Positions 2,636-47,275 of a stretch of 64,000 nucleotides of DNA are shown here, piece by piece; position 1 is the first letter of the stretch, and every line of letters begins with the position of its first letter. The stretch comes from Candidatus Collierbacteria bacterium GW2011_GWA2_42_17. GTDB lineage: Bacteria; Patescibacteriota; Microgenomatia; UBA1400; MFAQ01. The DNA lies in NCBI GenBank assembly GCA_000998275.1, contig LCDA01000002.1, positions 46,708-110,707 of the forward strand, read 5' to 3'. Below the pieces are notes generated by a model. The model saw only the letters and a program-made list of their open reading frames with translations. It did no database searches and had not been told where the DNA came from. The position numbers were made by a program, and so were the translations under genes.

Positions 2636-2863
2636 TCATCCATTAAGAAGTGACAGGATAAATATAATAAACATCGCTCCGGCCAACACGACAAAGGCCA
2701 AAAACAATATCTTTGCCGCTTTTGGGCTAACTGGTAGCCCATTGTCAAAGCCCTGAATTCTCAGGACACAAGCCGCGGCCAAAACGAAAAAAACCAACGA
2801 GGAACCACAAAACAAAGTTGGCATCTCTACCTCCATGTCAATGTATAGCCTGTAATATAACAC
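2636..2863 (-). CDS. Small hypothetical membrane protein (75 aa, 2 predicted TM helices)
   Basis: Hydrophobic ORF in an intergenic slot between rpsF and ychF. No known family. Confidence 0.35.
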   Translation of the reverse strand: MLYYRLYIDMEVEMPTLFCGSSLVFFVLAAACVLRIQGFDNGLPVSPKAAKILFLAFVVLAGAMFIIFILSLLNG

Positions 2864-2885
2864 AGTTGTGCCTAAAAGTCAAATC

Positions 2886-3932
2886 TCACCCTCCAATCAT
2901 AAACTCCACCACATCCCCATCCTTCATCTCATACTCCTTTCCCTCAAACCTCACCCTACCTTTGTCTGCTGCCTCTTTCCAGCCGCCCGCCTCCACGAAC
3001 TTGTCATAATCGCACACCTTAGCTTTGATAAACTTCTTTTCAAAGTCGGTGTGAATTACGCCTGCCGCCTGAGGAGCTTTCGTCCCTCTGGCAATAGTCC
3101 AGGCTCTACTCTCCATCTCTCCGGTCGTCAAAAAGGAAATCAGTCCCAAACTGCTGTAGGCCTTTTTAATTAAAAGGTCCAAGCCACTCTCTTTGATCCC
3201 CAACTCGGCCATATACGCCTTGGCATCTGCCTCGTCCAAACTCGACAGTTCCGACTCTACTTTGGCGCTTATATACAGTGCATCCCCCATTGGCCCACGC
3301 AAACGAGGATCAGTCTCCGCCACGTTATAAACTCGAATTTCCTTCTTGGCCGTCAGTAAAAATAGGTCACGTGCCAACTCAAGGTCAACCTCATCTTTCA
3401 GAATTTCTCGAGCCGGCTTACCTTCATTTAGTCCGGCAAAAAGCTTATCCACTACTGCCTTCTTTTTTTCCGAACCCTTGGCTTTGATATCTTTACTGTC
3501 AATTGCCTTATTTACCGTCTCCAAATCCTTCAAAATTAGTTCCGTCTCCACGACACCATAATCAGTTTCCGGGTCAACCGAACCCTCCTTTACAATTTCC
3601 GAGTCCTCAAAATCCCTCATTACCTGCAAAATCACGTCTACTTCTCGAATATGAGTCAAAAACTTGTTGCCTAAACCTGCTCCAGTAGCCGCTCCGGCCA
3701 CCAAACCAGCAATATCTACAAACTCCACCGTGGCTGGGACAATCCTGCCCGAGTGAGAGATATCCGAAAGCACTTTAAGACGCTCATCGGGCACTTCTAC
3801 CACTCCTACGTTGGGTTCTATCGTTGCGAACGGGTAATTTGCCACCAAAGCTTGCTGACGCTTCAAAAGCGCGTTAAAAAGCGTGGATTTCCCCACGTTT
3901 GGTAAACCAACTATTCCTACTCTAAGTGACAT
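2886..3932 (-). CDS. ychF: Ribosome-binding ATPase YchF (Obg-family GTPase)
   Basis: G1 motif GIVGLPNVGKST, a TGS-like C-terminus (VIHTDFEKKFIKAKV), and 348 aa. Confidence 0.9.
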   Translation of the reverse strand: MSLRVGIVGLPNVGKSTLFNALLKRQQALVANYPFATIEPNVGVVEVPDERLKVLSDISHSGRIVPATVEFVDIAGLVAGAATGAGLGNKFLTHIREVDVILQVMRDFEDSEIVKEGSVDPETDYGVVETELILKDLETVNKAIDSKDIKAKGSEKKKAVVDKLFAGLNEGKPAREILKDEVDLELARDLFLLTAKKEIRVYNVAETDPRLRGPMGDALYISAKVESELSSLDEADAKAYMAELGIKESGLDLLIKKAYSSLGLISFLTTGEMESRAWTIARGTKAPQAAGVIHTDFEKKFIKAKVCDYDKFVEAGGWKEAADKGRVRFEGKEYEMKDGDVVEFMIGG

Positions 3933-40198: not shown

Positions 40199-40243
40199 TT
40201 TCTAAAACAAAATTTAATACATCACTCTTGTGTATTTTTTCTG

Positions 40244-40326
40244 TGCCAAGGACAAGATTCGAACTTGTGTAGGCTTGCGCCGCGGGTTTTACAGACCCGA
40301 GTATTTGACCACTCTACCACCTTGGC
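40244..40326 (-). tRNA. tRNA-Tyr (anticodon GTA), type II with a long variable arm; CCA not encoded
   Basis: Cloverleaf folded by hand. Acceptor GCCAAGG/CCTTGGC, anticodon loop CTGTAAA, T-loop TTCGAAT. Confidence 0.85.
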
Positions 40327-40343
40327 ATTACCCTTTTACAGGG

Positions 40344-40416
40344 AGCCGTTGTTGAGACTCGAACTCAATACCTTTCCCTTACCAAGGGAATGCTCTGCCA
40401 GGTGAGCTACAACGGC
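40344..40416 (-). tRNA. tRNA-Thr (anticodon GGT)
   Basis: Acceptor GCCGTTG/CAACGGC, D-stem GCTC/GAGC, anticodon loop TTGGTAA, T-loop TTCGAGT. Confidence 0.85.
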
Positions 40417-40441
40417 TAATTAACCAACACCATATTTTACC

Positions 40442-41074
40442 TCATTTCATGCCCAATTTCCCAAGCTCATTCATTATGTATGATTTTAGGTGGGTATTAA
40501 AGAATCCGACGGTCATCACTCCATGTTTACAAATCTTCTTGTAAGTTCCTTTCCCCATCGAGTGTATTGGTTTCGTTGTCTTTATAGTATCTGGATCAAT
40601 ACCAAGCATTCTTCCCCAATACTTCCTTGCCTTAACCAAATCATTATCTTTAAAGGTTTGTAAATAATAACCAAATTTATCTTCCTTTGCACGACAAATT
40701 ATTCTTAAATACAACATAAACTGCTTTATCACCCCAGGATCGGAATTGGTCACTCGAACTGCATAACTAGTAGTTTTATTTCCCTCTCCCCAATACAATC
40801 CCAAAGCTAAATACTTTAGCTTCACTTCATCTCTGGTTAATCTCGTTTTTATACAAAAAGGTTCACCATCAGGATTGTGTTTAATATAATTGGCTTCAGA
40901 ACGCTTTCTCCTTACAATCCCATACTTATCCATCCAATAAATTACTTTGTGTGTTTTAAACCCCAACTTTATCGCTATTTCCGAAAGCGATTGTTTTTTA
41001 TCGATATATAGCTCTTTTAACTCATCCTTGGTCGGGATTCTTGCCATATATCCATTATCCCGAAAAATACCCAA
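40442..41074 (-). CDS. Putative free-standing LAGLIDADG-like homing-endonuclease-family protein with an N-terminal HTH (210 aa)
   Basis: The motif YLALGLYWGEGN resembles LAGLIDADG (with GEG standing for GDG), followed by a hydrophobic stretch of the right spacing. N-terminal HTH-like segment SLSEIAIKLGFKTHKVIYWMDKYGI. Located between tRNA genes. Confidence 0.45.
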   Translation of the reverse strand: MGIFRDNGYMARIPTKDELKELYIDKKQSLSEIAIKLGFKTHKVIYWMDKYGIVRRKRSEANYIKHNPDGEPFCIKTRLTRDEVKLKYLALGLYWGEGNKTTSYAVRVTNSDPGVIKQFMLYLRIICRAKEDKFGYYLQTFKDNDLVKARKYWGRMLGIDPDTIKTTKPIHSMGKGTYKKICKHGVMTVGFFNTHLKSYIMNELGKLGMK

Positions 41075-41133
41075 ATGTCAAATCATTTATGGGTATCAAA
41101 AACAAGATTGTAAGGTAAAATATAGATTGTTGC

Positions 41134-41210
41134 GCCACCTTAGCTCAGTTGGCTAGAGCACCTGTTTTGTAAACAGGGGGTCCTGGGTTCGAATCCCAGA
41201 GGTGGCTCCA
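41134..41210 (+). tRNA. tRNA-Thr (anticodon TGT), CCA encoded
   Basis: Acceptor GCCACCT/AGGTGGC, anticodon loop TTTGTAA, T-loop TTCGAAT, 3' CCA. Confidence 0.85.
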
Positions 41211-41953: not shown

Positions 41954-44900
41954 TTACAAATTTCCACTTTCACTAGCCGTCTCCGTCGGCGTTATTACTA
42001 CCACTGGCGTTGGCGTAGGCGTCTCTGTTGGACTTGGGGTTGAGCTCAACTCAGTTGTAGGAGTTGGCGTTATGGTAGTTTCCAGTATTGGAGTTGGTTC
42101 AGGTGTTACCGTTTCACTTGGCAGGTCAACAACTCCCCCACTTCCTTCAAACTTGCCTGTTTCATTTACTGCTAGAGCAACCCAGGCAAATCGTAAATCC
42201 ATGCCGACTCCTCTACTCAAACGAATCTTAAAGCCTCTGGTATTTACATCGGCAATAGCATAACCGGGAATGTCGGCAACCGAAGCACCTCCTACAATTT
42301 GCACCGTGGCAGTTACCACTGGTTCGTCTTTATATTCTCTCTCAAACAAAATCTCCACTTGGCTGCCTCCAGTTTTAATCGTGGCAAAACCTGCTGTGTC
42401 TTTATTAAACGTTGGCCTTCCGACAAAGTTTACCTCTCCTCTAAAGATCACTTTGCCCAAAAACTCTACTGTGTTCCTAAACACCTCAGCTATTTTCTTG
42501 GAAATTAGGTCTAATATATCAATCTCACTCGAAGTATCACTTTGTATTTCACCGGCAGCCGTGGCCACTCCTGCTACCCGATCACTCAACAGACTCAGTT
42601 TCCTGGTCAAGATATCCACTCCTTCGATCCTCCCGGCCTTTATCGTATCTGCGTAAAGTATTCCTGAAAAAGTGGCGTCACCCGACACTAGTAGGTCCTG
42701 TGTCACCACTTTTGGAGTTATTATTTCCAGTCCGGCAACCACTCTGTCAGCTATTATGTCGGACATGTTTGCCGAGTCAGTCGCAACTTGATTTTTTTCC
42801 ATAATCAGATTAGTCAGCACCTCATAACCATTAGCTACATCAATTCCCTTCATCACTTCAGTAAGATTACTTCCGGTACTGTTACCATTCTTCACAAAAA
42901 CAATTACGACTCCAACTCCTTCTCCGTCATATCCGGTCATCGCCGTCCCAATTATTGCTCCGGCCTTTGTTGCTCTCATCGCCACCCCAGGAATGGATGA
43001 AGAAGTCAGATAATCTCCGGCCTTGATTTCCCCATTTTCCGCCGACACTTTTACTGGCACCCTTCCCGAAAGAGCTACCAGTACCGGAGTTCCCGATACA
43101 TTTCCGTCACCAAGCACCATTCCCGGTTTTGTCGATACTATTCCCAGTACTGTGGAATCATAAGTCTTTCTGGATTTCTGGACGCCATTCTGAATTGAAC
43201 TGTCAACAGAAACGACGTCTCCTTCAGCTATTGAGCCATCATTCGATGAATACACTTCCGCCAAATCAGCCCCGCCGACCTTGAAAGCTTCCAAGAAGCT
43301 ACCTGCTTTAACCGTCACGTTCGTTCCCACCCCTGCCGTATTTTCGGCAAACTGAAAATTGAAGGTCCCTGCCGTTGCTCCGGTAGTGATAATTCCCTGA
43401 ATCCAGACATCAAAACCTTGACCTGCATCTGAAGCAATATTGTTATTAACCATCTCGGCTGGGGTTGTACAGTCTGTAGTTAATGCTTGTAGAAATACAG
43501 CTCCTACTGACTCAGATCCCGACTGCTGAACACTACAAGTGGTAGCTGCAGGACCAAGAATCGCTGCTTTCCAATCCGGCCCGTTACTGCTTCCGTTAGT
43601 TACAATCAGATGCAGTCTGAACACCCAAGATTCACTGGCCGCCATTGAAAACTGTAAAGCTGTATCATTGGTCAGGGTGGTACTATTGGTCACCGCCTGG
43701 TCAGTAGATTTAGTAATAAACAACTTATCTCCCCCAATACAGTTTGTCCAAGCACCGTTTTGGTAACATCTGAATTTATTAGTACTAGTGTTGTAATAGG
43801 TAGCCCCGTTTGTTCCGATTGGATCGGCCGTTCCGTTATCCAGCACCAACAAATCTGGTGTCGCCGTGGCGCTGTTTCCGATTACTACCCTTCCTGTCGA
43901 CGATGTTGGACCAACCATAAAGTTCACATTTCCAGTTCCGGAATATAAGTTTAAAGCCGTTGCACCAGTTGTATTACCCATCGTTATCGTCTTTGCATTG
44001 GCATTGGTACCAATATTAATTGCTCCGGTTGTTCCCGAGTCGAGTGTCACTGTTCCTGTTGTTCCGGTTGTAAAGGACAGATTTCCGGAAGTACCGGTTA
44101 GTAAAGTAATTCCTCCCGTACCGGAGTTGATGTTGACCGAAGTAGACGTATTAGTATTTCCTAAGGTAATCGCTTTTGCCGAAGCTCCGGTTCCAATATT
44201 TAGAGACATCGCCCCGGTCCCTGTAAATAAATTTGCCGTCCCCGTTTGGGCAGTTCCTCCCATCGTAAAGGTTCCATTCGTCGTCGAAGTTCCGAAAGAA
44301 TACGTTGTTGCCCCTGCTCCATCCAAAATAAAGTTCCCCGTACCCGCATACATATTTAGGGCACCCGTTCCCGTCGCACTACCAATCGTAATTGTTTTTC
44401 CGGTCGCGCTATTACCGATGTTTATCGCCCCGACACCGGAATCGATATTAATCGCCTGAGCCAGTGTCGCGTTTCCAATAGTCACTCCACCAGCCGCCGT
44501 TGTATCAATTATCGGAAATGACCTGGCAAAAATACCCAAAGGTGCCGCCGTCGATGACGGTAATGTCCGAGCATTCAAAATATACTGTGATCCCGCACCA
44601 TTTATTGCCGCCGTCGTCTCCCCAAAAGTAAACGCTGTTTTTACGGCTGTTGTCAAAGCAAAGTTCCAAGCCTGTGCATTGTCGCCATTAGCAATGGTAC
44701 TTCCACCTAAAGCAGCCGAAATTGAATCGAGACTGGTACCACTTGCACTACAAGCCCACGCCGTCCCACTATATTTAAGAATCTCTCCCGATGAACAAGT
44801 TCGAAGTAATGACAAACCGGTACTATTTACTAACCCACCGCCGGTACTTAGTTGAACTGCCGAACCCGATACTTTATTTGCCGTTGTGATTGTTGATAGG

Positions 44901-47275
44901 CTAGTATCAGCAATATTGGAAAGTGTATTCAAACTGGCATCTATTGTTTTATTTGTCAAAGCTATCGCAGTGTCCGTCAAAACGACTTTTGTTCCGGTTC
45001 TGATTCTTGCCACACCACCAGTTTGATCAGTAATCACAAACTCTTCGGACGAAGTTGTCGCCGGTCCGAACTGAAGCGTCGTTACTGCTCCAACCGATGG
45101 AGAACCGTCTGATTCTGCCACGGTCACGGATCCTCCGCCTGTTGAATCCGCACTACATGTCCAACCGGTAGCCGCCGTCCATTTTAGAATTTGATTATCA
45201 CTACAAGTCCTAAGTAGCGACAAACCGGAATCATTCACCAAACCACCATTGGCATTTAATGTCGGTGACCCCGATGTACTATCCGTATTACACACCCAAG
45301 ACGTTCCATTGTATTTAAGGATCTCTCCTGATGCGCAGGTTCTGAGCAAAGACAAGCCAGTACTATCTACTAACCCACCGCCGGTACTTAGTTGAACTGC
45401 TGAACCCGATACTTTATTTGCCGTTGTGATTGTTGCCAAATTGGCATCGGTTATTCCCGCAGTCCCGGATAAATTTGAGTTCGTAAGTCCGGAAATAGTA
45501 TTGGCTCCGGCGGCAATCGTTTTATTTGTTAACGTCCCTGACTCATTCAGAAATACAAAGGTGTCATTCCCCGACAAAGCCGGAATCGTCGCTGTTCTAC
45601 TGGCACTTGGTGCTGTAGAGGAAATCGTTGTCGTATTGGTTGTTCCCAATACCAGCTGATTATTTACCTTGGTCAGTGTAAGTGAATTAAACGTTGGTGT
45701 CGCTGTTGAATCGATATTTTGGATCGTATTCACCGACCCACTAACTACACTAAAGTTTGTTGAGTTATAGTTTGCTACTCCTTTTAATGTTGTTGAGGCG
45801 TCCACTCCGGCAATTGTTACTGTTCCTCCAAGAGATACCGGTGAACCGCTCACCGAAATTCCACTCCCCGGAGAGACAAAGATACTACTGTTGGATAGCT
45901 GGCCATTGGTAATACCCGCAGAGGCCGCTAGATTAGCCGAGGTTAATCCTGAAATAGCTGTGTTCGTTACTCCACTCACTCTCCCGTTTGCGTCGGTCGT
46001 CAACACCGGAATGTCTGTCGCTGTGCCGTAGGTTCCGGCTGTTCCCACGCTGGGTAACACTCCCGCAATATTTATCGTTGTCCCGGACGCAGTTACCGTA
46101 TTTAATCCGCTGCCGGTAATCGTAAGACCCCCGGTTAAACTATTTATACTTGATACTCCCGTCCCCACCCCACTTACCGACTGACACTCCCATGAATCTC
46201 CATCCCAACTCAACACCTGGTCTATCGAACAGCCCGTCAAAAGACTCAAACCCGAGTCATTTGTTAACCCCCCTCCGCCTCTCAACGATACTGCGGCTCC
46301 GGATACTTTATTTGCCTCGGTAATTTGAGCCAGTTTTGCATTAGTTATCTCTCCATCACCAATTTTTCCCGACGTAATTGTCCCATCTGTTATTTTGGCT
46401 CCAGTCACAGCGGAATCAGCCAGTTTGATGGTCGTCACCGCCCCGTCAGCCAACTTCAGAGTTGTTATCGAACCATTTACAATCTGGGCATCACCAACCA
46501 CCCCACTATTGATTATGGCCAATCCGGTCACTGGATCTATCGTAATGGCTCCGGAAACTACCGATGGTGTAGGGGATATTTCTGCCCCTGGAAGAATCAC
46601 CGTCACGGTTTCTTGAGCTTGATCTAACCATTTAAAAACCTCTTTTCCAACAGCTGCAGTAGCTATATCCACCTCCTGCAAAGACGGTGTAATGCTTATA
46701 TTTTCAAAATTACCTCGAGTATCTATCGTACCCAAAATTTGGGAATTATCTTTTAGACTTCGCAGATCCACGTCCCCAACCATCTTACCGCCGTTTATTC
46801 TGCCGTTAATTATTTTTACGGGGAGCGTTGTTCCGTCGGTCAGTGTTATACCAACCACTCCGTGTAACACAATCATGGCGTTCTCTATTACTCGATTATC
46901 GTCATCATAGATATTTACCGTCCCCTTTATTTCCTGGGTCAGTTTTGCCTCACCATTTTGATAAACAAGTTCTGTAAGATCAACGTATTTTTCATTTTGA
47001 ATCTGTGCGTTTTGAACTTTTACAAATGCGTACTCTCCGTTGGTTCGTGCTATTACCAAATATGGCTGATTGCCCAAATTGCTCTCTGACAATACCTCCG
47101 GAGTTACTTCCGAAACAGCCTGAATTGTCACTTGTTTTTCAACAACAGCAGGCTTGATCTTGCCGCCACTAATTGCAAAAACAACCCCTCCCCCAGTAAT
47201 CACAAAAAACAGAATCAAGATAAAACGCACTACCTGATCATATTTATTTCCAGTAATTAGCTGAGAACCTTCCAT
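41954..47275 (-). CDS. Giant (1773 aa) N-terminally anchored repetitive surface protein, tail-fibre/adhesin-like
   Basis: N-terminal TM. Short (I/L)TxxKLADGAVT-type repeats. Four copies of a module ANKVSGSAVQL.TGGGLVxSTGLSLLRTC...ILK(Y/W)...W.C with a conserved Cys pair. Long G/T/S/N-rich beta-like tracts. A C-terminal PT-rich linker. The start codon abuts the stop of the upstream gene. Confidence 0.8.
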   Translation of the reverse strand: MEGSQLITGNKYDQVVRFILILFFVITGGGVVFAISGGKIKPAVVEKQVTIQAVSEVTPEVLSESNLGNQPYLVIARTNGEYAFVKVQNAQIQNEKYVDLTELVYQNGEAKLTQEIKGTVNIYDDDNRVIENAMIVLHGVVGITLTDGTTLPVKIINGRINGGKMVGDVDLRSLKDNSQILGTIDTRGNFENISITPSLQEVDIATAAVGKEVFKWLDQAQETVTVILPGAEISPTPSVVSGAITIDPVTGLAIINSGVVGDAQIVNGSITTLKLADGAVTTIKLADSAVTGAKITDGTITSGKIGDGEITNAKLAQITEANKVSGAAVSLRGGGGLTNDSGLSLLTGCSIDQVLSWDGDSWECQSVSGVGTGVSSINSLTGGLTITGSGLNTVTASGTTINIAGVLPSVGTAGTYGTATDIPVLTTDANGRVSGVTNTAISGLTSANLAASAGITNGQLSNSSIFVSPGSGISVSGSPVSLGGTVTIAGVDASTTLKGVANYNSTNFSVVSGSVNTIQNIDSTATPTFNSLTLTKVNNQLVLGTTNTTTISSTAPSASRTATIPALSGNDTFVFLNESGTLTNKTIAAGANTISGLTNSNLSGTAGITDANLATITTANKVSGSAVQLSTGGGLVDSTGLSLLRTCASGEILKYNGTSWVCNTDSTSGSPTLNANGGLVNDSGLSLLRTCSDNQILKWTAATGWTCSADSTGGGSVTVAESDGSPSVGAVTTLQFGPATTSSEEFVITDQTGGVARIRTGTKVVLTDTAIALTNKTIDASLNTLSNIADTSLSTITTANKVSGSAVQLSTGGGLVNSTGLSLLRTCSSGEILKYSGTAWACSASGTSLDSISAALGGSTIANGDNAQAWNFALTTAVKTAFTFGETTAAINGAGSQYILNARTLPSSTAAPLGIFARSFPIIDTTAAGGVTIGNATLAQAINIDSGVGAINIGNSATGKTITIGSATGTGALNMYAGTGNFILDGAGATTYSFGTSTTNGTFTMGGTAQTGTANLFTGTGAMSLNIGTGASAKAITLGNTNTSTSVNINSGTGGITLLTGTSGNLSFTTGTTGTVTLDSGTTGAINIGTNANAKTITMGNTTGATALNLYSGTGNVNFMVGPTSSTGRVVIGNSATATPDLLVLDNGTADPIGTNGATYYNTSTNKFRCYQNGAWTNCIGGDKLFITKSTDQAVTNSTTLTNDTALQFSMAASESWVFRLHLIVTNGSSNGPDWKAAILGPAATTCSVQQSGSESVGAVFLQALTTDCTTPAEMVNNNIASDAGQGFDVWIQGIITTGATAGTFNFQFAENTAGVGTNVTVKAGSFLEAFKVGGADLAEVYSSNDGSIAEGDVVSVDSSIQNGVQKSRKTYDSTVLGIVSTKPGMVLGDGNVSGTPVLVALSGRVPVKVSAENGEIKAGDYLTSSSIPGVAMRATKAGAIIGTAMTGYDGEGVGVVIVFVKNGNSTGSNLTEVMKGIDVANGYEVLTNLIMEKNQVATDSANMSDIIADRVVAGLEIITPKVVTQDLLVSGDATFSGILYADTIKAGRIEGVDILTRKLSLLSDRVAGVATAAGEIQSDTSSEIDILDLISKKIAEVFRNTVEFLGKVIFRGEVNFVGRPTFNKDTAGFATIKTGGSQVEILFEREYKDEPVVTATVQIVGGASVADIPGYAIADVNTRGFKIRLSRGVGMDLRFAWVALAVNETGKFEGSGGVVDLPSETVTPEPTPILETTITPTPTTELSSTPSPTETPTPTPVVVITPTETASESGNL
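44767..45436. repeat. Two near-identical (2-3 mismatches) intragenic direct repeats of about 130 bp, 540 bp apart, inside the giant gene
   Basis: 44767..44896 against 45307..45436, compared by eye. They correspond to module copies 2 and 4. More diverged copies lie at about 45180-45260 and 46180-46330. Confidence 0.85.

What the first reader, a model, noticed from the sequence alone, without database searches (positions are those of the whole stretch)
40244..41210. LAGLIDADG-like ORF embedded in a tRNA cluster
Between tRNA-Tyr and tRNA-Thr(GGT) on the minus strand and tRNA-Thr(TGT) on the plus strand lies a 210-aa ORF. It has an N-terminal HTH-like segment and a single LAGLIDADG-like motif (YLALGLYWGEGN, where GEG may provide the catalytic acid), followed by the expected hydrophobic beta-strand region. 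Free-standing homing-endonuclease-like genes next to tRNA genes may mark a selfish element or a domesticated nuclease. None of the three tRNAs appears interrupted.
Basis: partly seen in the sequence, partly recalled or inferred. Interest (0 to 1): 0.5.

Follow-up and report, generated by a model that had tools for sequence, protein, structure and literature searches.

The report
Free-standing LAGLIDADG nuclease abutting tRNA-Thr
The ORF is a real gene for an unannotated nuclease with a homing-endonuclease fold; across the CPR bacteria and some giant phages its relatives sit inside tRNA gene arrays, it comes and goes like a selfish element, and it is a candidate mobility partner for a tRNA-Thr intron thought to lack one.

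Summary

The family is unannotated and CPR-wide, with 435 motif-matched loci in species genomes. In most fetched loci it abuts the 5' end of tRNA-Thr(GGT), often using the tRNA's U8-A9-G10 as its stop codon. Distant relatives sit in tRNA arrays of large phages. The gene is under purifying selection, yet intact, frameshifted, remnant, replaced and empty sites all occur, including an empty site in the window's own lineage. Among close relatives the adjacent tRNA-Thr(GGT) is only 65-71% identical while tRNA-Tyr is identical or differs at one base. In 25 of 80 loci that tRNA carries the known "divergent" group I intron.

Best reading: a free-standing homing endonuclease that targets the tRNA-Thr(GGT) locus. 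Cleavage and the target site are inferred, not shown. It is a new variant of a known kind.

The parts
40442..41047 (-). Coding sequence of the HTH + LAGLIDADG-fold protein: 201 aa plus TGA stop, preferred ATG start.
   Evidence: homologues about 201 aa; the promoter covers the TTG; dN/dS 0.03-0.18.
40868..41047 (-). N-terminal helix-turn-helix DNA-binding module, residues about 1-60.
40445..40852 (-). Single LAGLIDADG-fold domain, residues 66-201, with an inserted helix and loop of about 45 residues between strands 3 and 4.
40775..40810 (-). Motif LALGLYWGEGNK, residues 80-91: the end of helix 1 with the putative catalytic Glu88, then Gly89 and Lys91.
   Evidence: E88 is the last residue of helix 72-88. 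It aligns to I-DmoI E117/K120 (I-DmoI sequence verified). It is invariant in A1. In 75 representatives not selected on the motif, E is kept in 66, G89 in 73 and K/R91 in 68. It is intact in 23 of 23 full-length copies found through the intron.
41054..41081 (-). Sigma-70-like promoter of the ORF (TTGACA, 16 nt, GATAAT), ending 6 nt before the ATG. This implies a leaderless or nearly leaderless mRNA.
   Evidence: 11 of 12 matches. The element is conserved in L010 and L011. Function is inferred.
40432..40441 (-). GGTAAAATAT element directly after the stop codon and 14 nt upstream of tRNA-Thr(GGT). It is a -10-like element kept in both occupied and empty sites and marks the 3' boundary of the insertion.
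   Evidence: Alignment of the empty site L218 with occupied sites. Promoter function is inferred.
40341..40417 (-). tRNA-Thr(GGT), 24 nt downstream of the ORF on the same strand and without an intron here. It is the family's conserved partner and the inferred target or co-converted marker.
   Evidence: adjacent in about 55 of 80 loci; only 65-71% identical among close relatives while tRNA-Tyr is identical or differs at one base.
40243..40326 (-). tRNA-Tyr(GTA), 14 nt downstream of tRNA-Thr(GGT). It is the invariant flank that marks the end of the variable segment.
   Evidence: (84/84 identical to L001, L010 and L011).
41134..41210 (+). tRNA-Thr(TGT), upstream of the ORF and inverted relative to it in this genome. 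It is the other edge of the slot.
   Evidence: (mosaic alleles: 66/75 to 72/75 identical to relatives).

Best explanation
The gene encodes a two-domain protein: an N-terminal helix-turn-helix followed by one LAGLIDADG-fold nuclease domain that keeps the acidic residue (Glu88 in G-E-G) at the catalytic position. I propose that it is a free-standing homing endonuclease.

Shown: the fold; conservation of the motif; purifying selection; a fixed position directly 5' of tRNA-Thr(GGT) across the CPR and inside tRNA arrays in large phages; presence/absence and decay polymorphism at that position; localised allele replacement of the adjacent tRNA-Thr(GGT) among close relatives of this genome; and enrichment of the tRNA-Thr 36/37 group I intron next to the gene.

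Inferred: the protein dimerises, as single-motif LAGLIDADG enzymes do. It cuts tRNA-Thr(GGT) loci that lack the gene or carry a sensitive allele. Recombinational repair then copies the gene together with its linked resistant tRNA-Thr allele. In lineages that have the intron, the intron splits the recognition site and travels with the gene ('collaborative homing').

In this window the gene has its own promoter, and no terminator-like site was found before tRNA-Thr(GGT) and tRNA-Tyr, so it is probably co-transcribed with them.
For: Fold and active site:
- hhalign register with I-DmoI motif 2.
- E88 sits at the C-terminal end of helix 1.
- E88 is kept in 66 of 75 representatives not selected on the motif and in 23 of 23 copies found through the intron.

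Real gene: dN/dS 0.03-0.18.

Site specificity:
- 435 loci in species genomes, all fetched ones CPR-like.
- tRNA-Thr(GGT) starts within -104 to +48 nt of the stop in about 55 of 80 loci. The commonest arrangement is a 10-nt overlap in which the tRNA's U8-A9-G10 is the stop codon.
- The other 25 of 80 loci have the same tRNA split by an intron.
- Seven phage relatives with the same architecture all lie in tRNA arrays.

Optional, decaying element:
- 5 of 80 copies carry frameshifts or in-frame stops.
- Of intron-selected loci, 27 of 62 have the ORF (some fragmentary) and 35 of 62 do not; among the latter are C-terminal remnants abutting the tRNA and clean empty sites.
- In the window's own lineage, L218 has Thr(TGT)-49 nt-Thr(GGT)-Tyr with no ORF, and L217 has a different gene in the slot.

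Local exchange:
- Window against L010/L011: flanking proteins are 93-95% identical and the ORF 70%.
- The nucleotide dip is confined to the ORF plus tRNA-Thr(GGT).
- tRNA-Tyr is 84/84 identical while tRNA-Thr(GGT) is 54/76 and 49/75 (Fisher p about 1e-8).
- Fourfold-site divergence is 0.59-0.60 in the ORF against 0.32-0.34 in the two adjacent genes.

Intron link: the intron is present in 25 of 80 ORF-bearing loci, against 3 of 95 complete Patescibacteria genomes in PMC13011429 (p = 4e-7; the two datasets differ).

Precedents:
- T4 SegB, a free-standing homing endonuclease in a tRNA cluster that recognises a tRNA motif and drives co-inheritance of tRNA genes (PMC2330249).
- F-CphI collaborative homing (PMC6083498).
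- I-ShaI, an active homodimeric single-domain CPR LAGLIDADG enzyme (PMC11270868).
Against: - No curated LAGLIDADG profile matches, and Foldseek against the PDB gives no significant or LAGLIDADG hit. The hhalign match alone is weak (E = 0.004, probability 8%).
- No cleavage activity, target site or dimerisation has been shown.
- At class level the protein tree broadly follows taxonomy, and the gene is strongly constrained, so long vertical persistence or domestication is possible.
- The contrast between a variable tRNA-Thr(GGT) and a stable tRNA-Tyr is not general. Over 112 pairs both average 0.75 identity.
- The raised dS is also seen against L001, whose tRNA is identical, so it may partly reflect weak codon constraint.
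- Most ORF-bearing genomes, including this one, have an uninterrupted tRNA-Thr(GGT). If the tRNA is the target, these must be resistant alleles, which is untested.
- 35 of 62 intron-bearing loci lack the ORF, so the partnership is facultative at most.
Confidence: 0.6

Rival explanations
1. A domesticated LAGLIDADG-fold DNA-binding protein, analogous to WhiA, that regulates the tRNA-Thr/Tyr operon or nearby genes rather than acting as a mobile nuclease.
Against: The catalytic-position Glu and the neighbouring Gly and Lys are retained, whereas WhiA has lost its catalytic residues (established knowledge). The architecture differs: one domain with an N-terminal HTH. Frameshifted copies, remnants and empty sites occur in close relatives, so the gene is dispensable. 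Relatives in phage tRNA arrays fit mobility better than host regulation.
Confidence: 0.17
2. A maturase: a protein cofactor that helps the divergent group I intron of tRNA-Thr(GGT), or other CPR introns, to fold and splice.
For: LAGLIDADG proteins are the classical group I intron maturases (established knowledge). The intron is strongly enriched next to the gene (25/80 against 3/95). Rfam misses the intron, and self-splicing was tested in PMC13011429 only for the Asn and Asp introns.
Against: 55 of 80 ORF-bearing loci, including this window, have no intron in tRNA-Thr(GGT). 35 of 62 intron-bearing loci have no ORF upstream. Intron-containing and intron-less loci are interleaved among close relatives on the protein tree while the ORF stays conserved.
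Confidence: 0.1
3. A nuclease with a cellular or conflict role unrelated to homing, for example an anti-phage or anti-plasmid defence or toxin nuclease, or a tRNA or RNA processing enzyme that merely happens to lie in a tRNA operon.
For: The distribution is patchy and relatives occur in phages, as with many defence or counter-defence genes. The gene is expressed from a tRNA operon.
Against: There is no match to any PADLOC defence model and no partner genes: the neighbours vary while only the tRNA is constant. The LAGLIDADG fold is known for DNA cleavage and maturase roles, not tRNA processing (established knowledge). The exact positional conservation at one tRNA gene is the signature of site-specific insertion.
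Confidence: 0.06

Closest known systems
I-DmoI, C-terminal LAGLIDADG domain (archaeal intron-encoded homing endonuclease)
   Different: I-DmoI is a two-domain monomer encoded inside an rRNA intron. This protein has a single LAGLIDADG domain, an insertion of about 45 residues between strands 3 and 4, an added N-terminal HTH, and it is free-standing. No Pfam LAGLIDADG profile detects it.
I-ShaI and other single-domain LAGLIDADG endonucleases of CPR rRNA insertion sequences (PMC11270868)
   Same: Same host radiation, a single LAGLIDADG domain, and an expected homodimer. I-ShaI was shown to cleave its insertion site and to dimerise.
   Different: Those enzymes are encoded inside rRNA introns or insertion sequences and are recognised by LAGLIDADG profiles. 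This family lies outside any intron, next to a tRNA gene, carries an HTH, and is unannotated. That paper does not mention tRNA or free-standing genes.
Phage T4 SegB (GIY-YIG free-standing homing endonuclease in the tRNA gene cluster; PMC2330249)
   Same: A free-standing nuclease gene inside a tRNA gene array. SegB recognises a site containing a conserved tRNA motif and drives preferential inheritance of itself and the surrounding tRNA genes. The local replacement of tRNA-Thr(GGT) alleles around this ORF and the phage relatives in tRNA arrays match that behaviour.
   Different: The catalytic fold is different (GIY-YIG against LAGLIDADG). SegB is a phage gene, whereas this one is chromosomal in CPR bacteria. 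SegB activity is demonstrated; here activity is inferred.
F-CphI/psbA intron 'collaborative homing' and T4 mobE/I-TevIII trans-homing (PMC6083498, PMC2790892)
   Same: A free-standing endonuclease gene lies next to a gene whose group I intron has no endonuclease gene of its own. In that model the intron blocks self-cleavage and the endonuclease mobilises the intron. Here the ORF lies directly upstream of an intron-bearing tRNA-Thr(GGT) in 25 of 80 loci selected through the ORF and in 27 of 62 loci selected through the intron.
   Different: Those are phage protein-coding genes with Endo VII-like or HNH nucleases. Here the host gene is a bacterial tRNA and the nuclease has a LAGLIDADG fold. The window itself has no intron. 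All four combinations of ORF and intron occur, so any partnership is facultative and cleavage at the intron insertion site is untested.
WhiA (bacterial transcription factor with degenerate LAGLIDADG domains plus an HTH)
   Different: WhiA has two LAGLIDADG domains that lack catalytic residues, a C-terminal HTH, and is a conserved core gene. This protein has one domain that keeps the Glu, an N-terminal HTH, and a sporadic, decaying distribution.

Membership tests
LAGLIDADG homing endonucleases | alpha-beta-beta-alpha-beta-beta-alpha core fold | tested here: met
LAGLIDADG homing endonucleases | Motif helix ending in a conserved acidic residue followed by Gly (the metal-binding catalytic residue) | tested here: met
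   E88-G89 lie at the C-terminal end of helix 72-88. They align with E117-G118 of I-DmoI. They are invariant in 54 sequences, and E is kept in 66 of 75 representatives not selected on the motif and in 23 of 23 copies found through the intron.
LAGLIDADG homing endonucleases | Significant match to curated sequence profiles (Pfam LAGLIDADG_1/2/3 and related; NCBIfam) | tested here: not met
   No LAGLIDADG hit at E<=10 for the window protein, none among the 25 most frequently matched Pfam families for the 54 members scanned at E<=1 (61 families matched in all), and only one sub-threshold LAGLIDADG_3 hit (E = 0.16) in one phage relative. A profile search of PDB sequences also found none.
LAGLIDADG homing endonucleases | Mg2+-dependent site-specific double-strand cleavage of a long (about 20 bp) target | not testable with these tools
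   This needs purified protein and substrates. No target site could be derived computationally.
LAGLIDADG homing endonucleases | Single-motif enzymes act as homodimers through the motif helix | not testable with these tools
   No multimer prediction was available. One motif per 201-aa chain is shown.
Homing endonuclease genes in general | Optional element at a fixed genomic site: occupied, degenerate and empty sites among related genomes | tested here: met
   Fixed site 5' of tRNA-Thr(GGT). Frameshifts or stops in 5 of 80 copies. Remnants and empty sites. Empty site L218 and replaced slot L217 in the window's own lineage, with defined boundaries.
Homing endonuclease genes in general | Phylogeny or divergence of the element discordant with flanking host DNA (horizontal spread or co-conversion) | tested here: inconclusive
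   Clear in the window's clade: flanks 93-95% aa identity against ORF 70%; tRNA-Tyr 84/84 against tRNA-Thr(GGT) 49-54 of about 75; higher fourfold-site divergence. It is not a general trend over 112 pairs. At class level the protein tree follows taxonomy. dS is also raised against L001.
Intron- or intein-encoded LAGLIDADG enzymes | Gene located inside a group I intron or an intein | tested here: not met
   The ORF lies between tRNA genes and has its own promoter. Where the intron exists it is 169-269 nt, lies inside the tRNA downstream of the ORF, and contains no ORF.
Collaborative homing pairs (free-standing endonuclease plus endonuclease-less intron, F-CphI type) | Endonuclease gene adjacent to an intron-containing target gene | tested here: not met
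   Not met in this window, where tRNA-Thr(GGT) is uninterrupted. Met in relatives: 25 of 80 loci selected through the ORF and 27 of 62 loci selected through the intron. 35 of 62 intron-bearing loci lack the ORF.
Collaborative homing pairs (free-standing endonuclease plus endonuclease-less intron, F-CphI type) | The enzyme cleaves the intron-less allele at the intron insertion site, and the intron protects its own genome | not testable with these tools
   Requires cleavage assays on intron-less and intron-containing tRNA-Thr(GGT) alleles.
WhiA-type regulators | Two degenerate LAGLIDADG domains without catalytic acids, a C-terminal HTH, and a conserved core gene | tested here: not met
   One domain, an N-terminal HTH and a retained Glu. 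The gene is sporadic and decaying.
Group I intron (the insert in tRNA-Thr(GGT) of related loci) | 5' exon ends in U, intron ends in G, removal restores a functional gene, and there is a conserved paired core | tested here: met
   The insert follows U36 and ends in G. In-silico splicing gives tRNA-Thr(GGT) in 83 of 83 cases. There are 36 consensus pairs, 21 with compensatory changes, plus invariant ACGGU/ACCGU and GACUG/CAGUC helices. Rfam RF00028 does not detect it, as PMC13011429 also reports. Splicing itself has not been shown.

The most novel reading that the evidence does not exclude
This family is a tRNA-gene-specific homing system of cellular chromosomes. A homodimeric HTH-LAGLIDADG enzyme recognises the DNA of tRNA-Thr(GGT), plausibly the inverted repeat of the anticodon arm, and cuts sensitive alleles. 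Two alternative immunity routes have evolved next to it: wholesale replacement of the tRNA allele by compensatory-variant copies, and the 36/37 group I intron that splits the site. This would make the apparently endonuclease-less 'divergent' tRNA-Thr intron of Patescibacteria mobile in trans. It would also identify a nuclease lineage shared by CPR bacteria and giant phages that shapes tRNA gene arrays.
Probability: 0.3. Interest if true: 0.75.

Novelty: new variant of a known kind. Interest (0 to 1): 0.6.

Why it matters
- **An unannotated family gets a fold and a likely role.** The proteins are labelled 'hypothetical' and have no Pfam or NCBIfam model. The family is present in at least 435 CPR species genomes and has distant relatives in large phages.
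[quoted passage not shown] The tRNA-Thr(GGU) intron often has a LAGLIDADG-fold gene immediately upstream of its 5' exon, which gives a testable route for mobility in trans.
- **It offers an explanation for unusual tRNA variation.** A tRNA gene can differ by about 30% between genomes whose neighbouring genes are about 94% identical.
- **It is a candidate source of new enzymes.** These are compact, single-chain (about 200 aa) site-specific nucleases with an added HTH.
- **It matters for annotation.** The stop codon is often supplied by the tRNA's U8-A9-G10, so gene callers and tRNA finders will conflict at these loci.

Tried and rejected
- **Sequence profiles.** Pfam, NCBIfam and PADLOC gave nothing for the nuclease domain. 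PHROGs matched only the HTH.
- **PDB sequence searches.** They returned antibody heavy chains and HindIII at E>=0.02. I treat these as chance matches.
- **hhalign against I-CreI.** No meaningful alignment.
- **Rfam.** At gathering threshold and at E<=1 it did not recognise the tRNA insert as a group I intron. I characterised it from its boundaries, in-silico splicing and covariation instead.
- **A tRNA-Thr(GGT) DNA probe for empty sites.** Considered and rejected, because the alleles are too divergent even among close relatives. I used the conserved LytR_C neighbour instead. One of those look-ups returned no DNA and one contig ended before the slot (L216).
- **A general rule that tRNA-Thr(GGT) is hypervariable.** Rejected: over 112 pairs its mean identity equals that of tRNA-Tyr.
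- **L012 as a 'similar cassette in a divergent host' case.** Rejected: the ORF and the flanks are about equally diverged.
- **Chance ORF, core housekeeping gene, defence gene.** Considered and rejected on dN/dS, on empty sites and pseudogenes, and on PADLOC, respectively.
Full report
**1. Observation**

The window contains the ORF at 40442..41074 (-).

The start codon needs correcting. Homologues are almost all about 201 aa and begin at the Met that corresponds to the ATG at 41047. The best sigma-70-like match in the region (TTGACA-16-GATAAT, 11 of 12) spans 41081-41054. It covers the TTG and ends 6 nt before the ATG, which suggests a leaderless or nearly leaderless mRNA. No terminator-like site lies between the ORF and the two downstream tRNAs.

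The source is a Candidatus Collierbacteria (CPR/Patescibacteria) genome, where the protein is annotated 'hypothetical protein'.

**2. What the protein is**

*Sequence profiles.*
- Pfam and NCBIfam give no LAGLIDADG hit for the window protein, even at E<=10.
- No LAGLIDADG family appears among the 25 most frequently matched Pfam families for the 54 members scanned.
- PADLOC gives nothing.
- The N-terminal 60 residues are an HTH. MerR_1, HTH_23, HTH_28 and HTH_7 match many members, and two PHROG families labelled 'HNH endonuclease' match only through their HTH ends.
- PDB sequence searches return only chance matches.

*Structure.*
- AlphaFold2 with the 54-sequence alignment gives a confident model, pLDDT 90.1.
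- Foldseek against the PDB found nothing significant, and no LAGLIDADG hit. I therefore modelled residues 66-201 alone (pLDDT 92.7, pTM 0.84).

*Active site.*
- hhalign of the family against I-DmoI (sequence verified against 1b24) aligns LALGLYWGEGNKTTSYAVRVTNSDPGVIKQF with FIKGLYVAEGDKTLK-RLRIWNKNKALLEIV. Glu88 falls on the catalytic Glu117 and Lys91 on Lys120 (E = 0.004; weak alone but in register with the fold).
- Glu88 is the last residue of helix 1 in the model.
- G83, W86, G87, E88, G89, K91, N101, D103, W144, G167, Y169, G176 and N184 are invariant in the alignment.
- In 75 full-length cluster representatives from an exhaustive HMM search, a sample not selected on the motif, Glu is kept in 66, Gly89 in 73, Lys/Arg91 in 68 and Trp144 in 71 of 71.

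*Conclusion.* The fold is LAGLIDADG and the catalytic-position acid is retained, but the family lies outside the curated sequence models. Relative to I-DmoI's C-terminal domain it has an insertion of about 45 residues (a helix and a loop carrying the conserved W144 and GKGTY) between strands 3 and 4. This is my reading of the secondary structure.

**3. Where the family lives**

*In CPR genomes.*
- One back-translated motif found 435 confirmed loci in one-genome-per-species collections. The 80 kept are CPR lineages: Microgenomates, Saccharibacteria, Paceibacterota/Parcubacteria, Peribacteria and others. Several MAG records carry plainly wrong names.
- In about 55 of 80 loci, tRNA-Thr(GGT) starts within -104 to +48 nt of the ORF's stop on the same strand.
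- The commonest arrangement (18 loci) is a 10-nt overlap in which the ORF runs into the acceptor stem and stops at the tRNA's conserved U8-A9-G10 'TAG'. Other overlaps use later in-frame stops in the tRNA.
- The usual order is Thr(TGT)-Tyr(GTA)-ORF-Thr(GGT)-Trp(CCA).
- The 5' side is looser, with a median of 69 nt to the upstream same-strand tRNA.

*In phages.* Seven distant relatives (26-35% identity over the nuclease domain; same HTH + G[LI]YWGEG.K...N.D architecture; 208-239 aa) occur in large viral contigs. Every one lies inside a phage tRNA array, often overlapping a tRNA gene at its 3' end. Pfam sees only their HTH.

**4. The intron**

The 25 of 80 loci with 'no' tRNA-Thr(GGT) in fact have its 5' half directly after the ORF. 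An insert of 169-269 nt follows the anticodon (position 36/37), and then comes the 3' half.
- The 5' exon ends in U and the insert ends in G.
- In-silico removal restores a tRNA that ARAGORN calls tRNA-Thr(GGT) in 83 of 83 unique cases.
- The insert has 36 consensus pairs, 21 with compensatory changes, and invariant ACGGU/ACCGU and GACUG/CAGUC helices.
- Rfam's group I model misses it.

This is the 'divergent group I intron' of tRNA-Thr(GGU) already listed for 3 of 95 complete Patescibacteria genomes, and also reported there as missed by RF00028. That paper concluded that tRNA introns mostly lack homing endonuclease genes. In the passages I searched (terms: LAGLIDADG, homing endonuclease, upstream, free-standing) it does not mention an upstream gene (PMC13011429).

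Intron frequency among ORF-bearing loci (25/80) is far above that baseline (3/95; Fisher p = 4e-7), with the caveat that the two datasets differ.

Scanning metagenomes for an intron motif, independently of the ORF, gave 62 evaluable loci:
- 61 have the motif in a split tRNA-Thr(GGT).
- 27 have the family ORF directly upstream. All 23 full-length copies from the scan keep WGEG..K/R intact.
- 35 have no ORF upstream.

ORF and intron are therefore separable but associated. On the protein tree, intron-containing and intron-less loci are interleaved among close relatives in the Saccharibacteria/Parcubacteria part, and the intron is absent from the Microgenomates part.

**5. Optional and decaying**

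- Among the 80 species loci, L012, L043 and L014 have frameshifts and L062 and L084 have in-frame stops.
- Among intron-bearing loci without an ORF:
  - some keep a short C-terminal remnant abutting the tRNA (L100 and L144, about 62% identity);
  - some have divergent or displaced copies (L133, L154, L151);
  - some are clean empty sites (L136: Tyr-37 nt-Thr; L150: Tyr-56 nt-Thr).
- In the window's own lineage, reached through the conserved LytR_C neighbour:
  - L218 has Thr(TGT)-49 nt-Thr(GGT)-27 nt-Tyr with no ORF;
  - L217 has a 181-aa acetyltransferase-like gene in the slot.
- Aligning the empty site with occupied sites defines the insert as promoter plus ORF. It sits between Thr(TGT) and a GGTAAAATAT element that is kept upstream of tRNA-Thr(GGT) in all four sequences.

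**6. Selection and exchange**

- dN/dS is 0.03-0.18, so intact copies are functional.
- Between the window and L010/L011 the flanking proteins are 93-95% identical and the ORF 70%.
- Nucleotide identity dips only across the ORF plus tRNA-Thr(GGT).
- tRNA-Tyr, 14 nt beyond tRNA-Thr(GGT), is 84/84 identical. tRNA-Thr(GGT) is 54/76 and 49/75, with changes in every stem. L009, L010 and L011 also differ from one another (p about 1e-8).
- Fourfold-site divergence is 0.59-0.60 in the ORF against 0.32-0.34 in the two adjacent genes.

Limits:
- The tRNA discordance is not general. Over 112 pairs both tRNAs average 0.75 identity.
- dS is also raised against L001, whose tRNA is identical.
- L012 shows no clear reverse pattern.
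- At class level the tree follows taxonomy.

I read this as local allele replacement centred on the ORF in this clade, together with long-term vertical persistence at deeper levels.

**7. Mechanism**

The best-supported reading is a free-standing LAGLIDADG homing endonuclease whose homing site is the tRNA-Thr(GGT) locus.

*Shown:* the fold, motif retention, constraint, site specificity, occupancy polymorphism with decay, local exchange in one clade, and the association with the intron.

*Inferred:* dimerisation, DNA cleavage, a target within or next to the tRNA gene, co-conversion of a resistant tRNA allele, and intron-mediated protection.

*Precedents:*
- T4 SegB, in a tRNA cluster, recognises a tRNA motif and drives co-inheritance of tRNA genes (PMC2330249).
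- F-CphI collaborative homing (PMC6083498).
- I-ShaI, an active homodimeric CPR LAGLIDADG enzyme (PMC11270868).

*Rivals:*
- A WhiA-like regulator is disfavoured by the retained Glu, the architecture and the dispensability.
- A maturase is disfavoured because most ORF-bearing loci lack the intron and most intron-bearing loci lack the ORF.
- A defence nuclease has no support.

One consequence of the overlap, by inference: RNase P cleavage at the tRNA 5' end would remove the ORF's last codons and its stop. Translation would then have to compete with tRNA processing, which could keep expression low.

**8. Novelty and verdict**

LAGLIDADG homing endonucleases, free-standing homing endonuclease genes in tRNA clusters, and endonuclease-intron collaboration are all known kinds.

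What is new:
- the sequence family itself, which is unannotated and undetected by curated profiles;
- its HTH plus single-domain architecture;
- its strict tRNA association across CPR bacteria and large phages;
- the use of tRNA nucleotides as the stop codon;
- its position next to an intron regarded as lacking an endonuclease gene.

I classify it as a new variant of a known kind, interest 0.6. Confidence is about 0.9 for the fold and 0.6 for the homing mechanism.

Noticed in passing
Related loci, e.g. L071:3594-3787, L066:3606-3799, L077:3643-3853; 83 unique copies in L023-L168: tRNA-Thr(GGT) is split after the anticodon (36/37) by a structured insert of 169-269 nt: the 'divergent group I intron' of Patescibacteria. 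Rfam RF00028 misses it, and ARAGORN then fails to call the tRNA. In-silico splicing restores tRNA-Thr(GGT) in 83 of 83 cases, and 21 of 36 consensus pairs covary.
   Followed up: yes
L005:4591-4600, L007:4597-4606, L024, L026, L030, L031, L034, L035 and others (18 loci): The ORF reads 10 nt into the tRNA and uses the tRNA's universally conserved U8-A9-G10 (TAG) as its stop codon. Other loci stop at later in-frame triplets inside the tRNA, with overlaps of up to about 100 nt. tRNA 5' processing would remove the stop codon from the mRNA.
   Followed up: partly
L209-L215 (IMG/VR contigs of 45-497 kb), ORFs at about 2700-3400 in each locus: Distant relatives with the same HTH + GLYWGEG.K architecture lie inside tRNA arrays of large phage genomes. 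Several overlap the end of a tRNA gene on the opposite strand.
   Followed up: partly
L084:3839-4297; L111:574-1227; also L104, L133, L154, L163: A second, more divergent subfamily (motif MLYWGEG.K or MLYWAEG.K; about 100-115 bits against the family HMM; about 30% identity) occurs near the same tRNAs. In at least L084 and L111 it lies downstream of tRNA-Thr(GGT), so two paralogous nuclease genes can flank one tRNA.
   Followed up: no
Proteins P0081 (701 aa), P0086 (821 aa) and about 50 others: Long proteins (about 360-820 aa) consist of 5-14 tandem copies of the family's N-terminal HTH module (HTH_23-like) with no nuclease domain. Function unknown.
   Followed up: partly
L217:4690-5760 (GCA_002347045.1): In a Collierbacteria relative the slot between Thr(TGT) and Thr(GGT) holds a 181-aa acetyltransferase-like ORF. 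It is preceded by a duplicated 3' part of tRNA-Thr(TGT) and a repeated upstream segment, which looks like the scar of a different insertion at the same hotspot.
   Followed up: no
window 43300-43800, within the 1773-aa ORF at 41954-47275 (-): A segment of the giant repetitive surface-type protein is only 56-63% identical at nucleotide level to L010/L011, while its flanks are about 85%. It is a second localised hypervariable patch in this neighbourhood.
   Followed up: no
L077:5380-6579: The 23S rRNA gene downstream of this locus shows a 281-nt insertion relative to the Rfam LSU model near model position about 230. This is probably one of the rRNA insertion sequences typical of CPR bacteria.
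   Followed up: no
L008:3868-3952 and L062:1052-1139: ARAGORN-88-nt 'tRNA-Phe(AAA)' genes just upstream of the ORF, where other loci have tRNA-Tyr. The anticodon and length are unusual, and these may be miscalled or aberrant tRNAs.
   Followed up: no
Record titles of L009, L011-L016, L018, L022 and others: Many of the MAG records carrying this CPR gene and CPR-type flanks are titled 'uncultured Pseudomonadales/Gammaproteobacteria/Actinomycetota bacterium'. The names are evidently wrong, so taxon labels on these loci should not be trusted.
   Followed up: no
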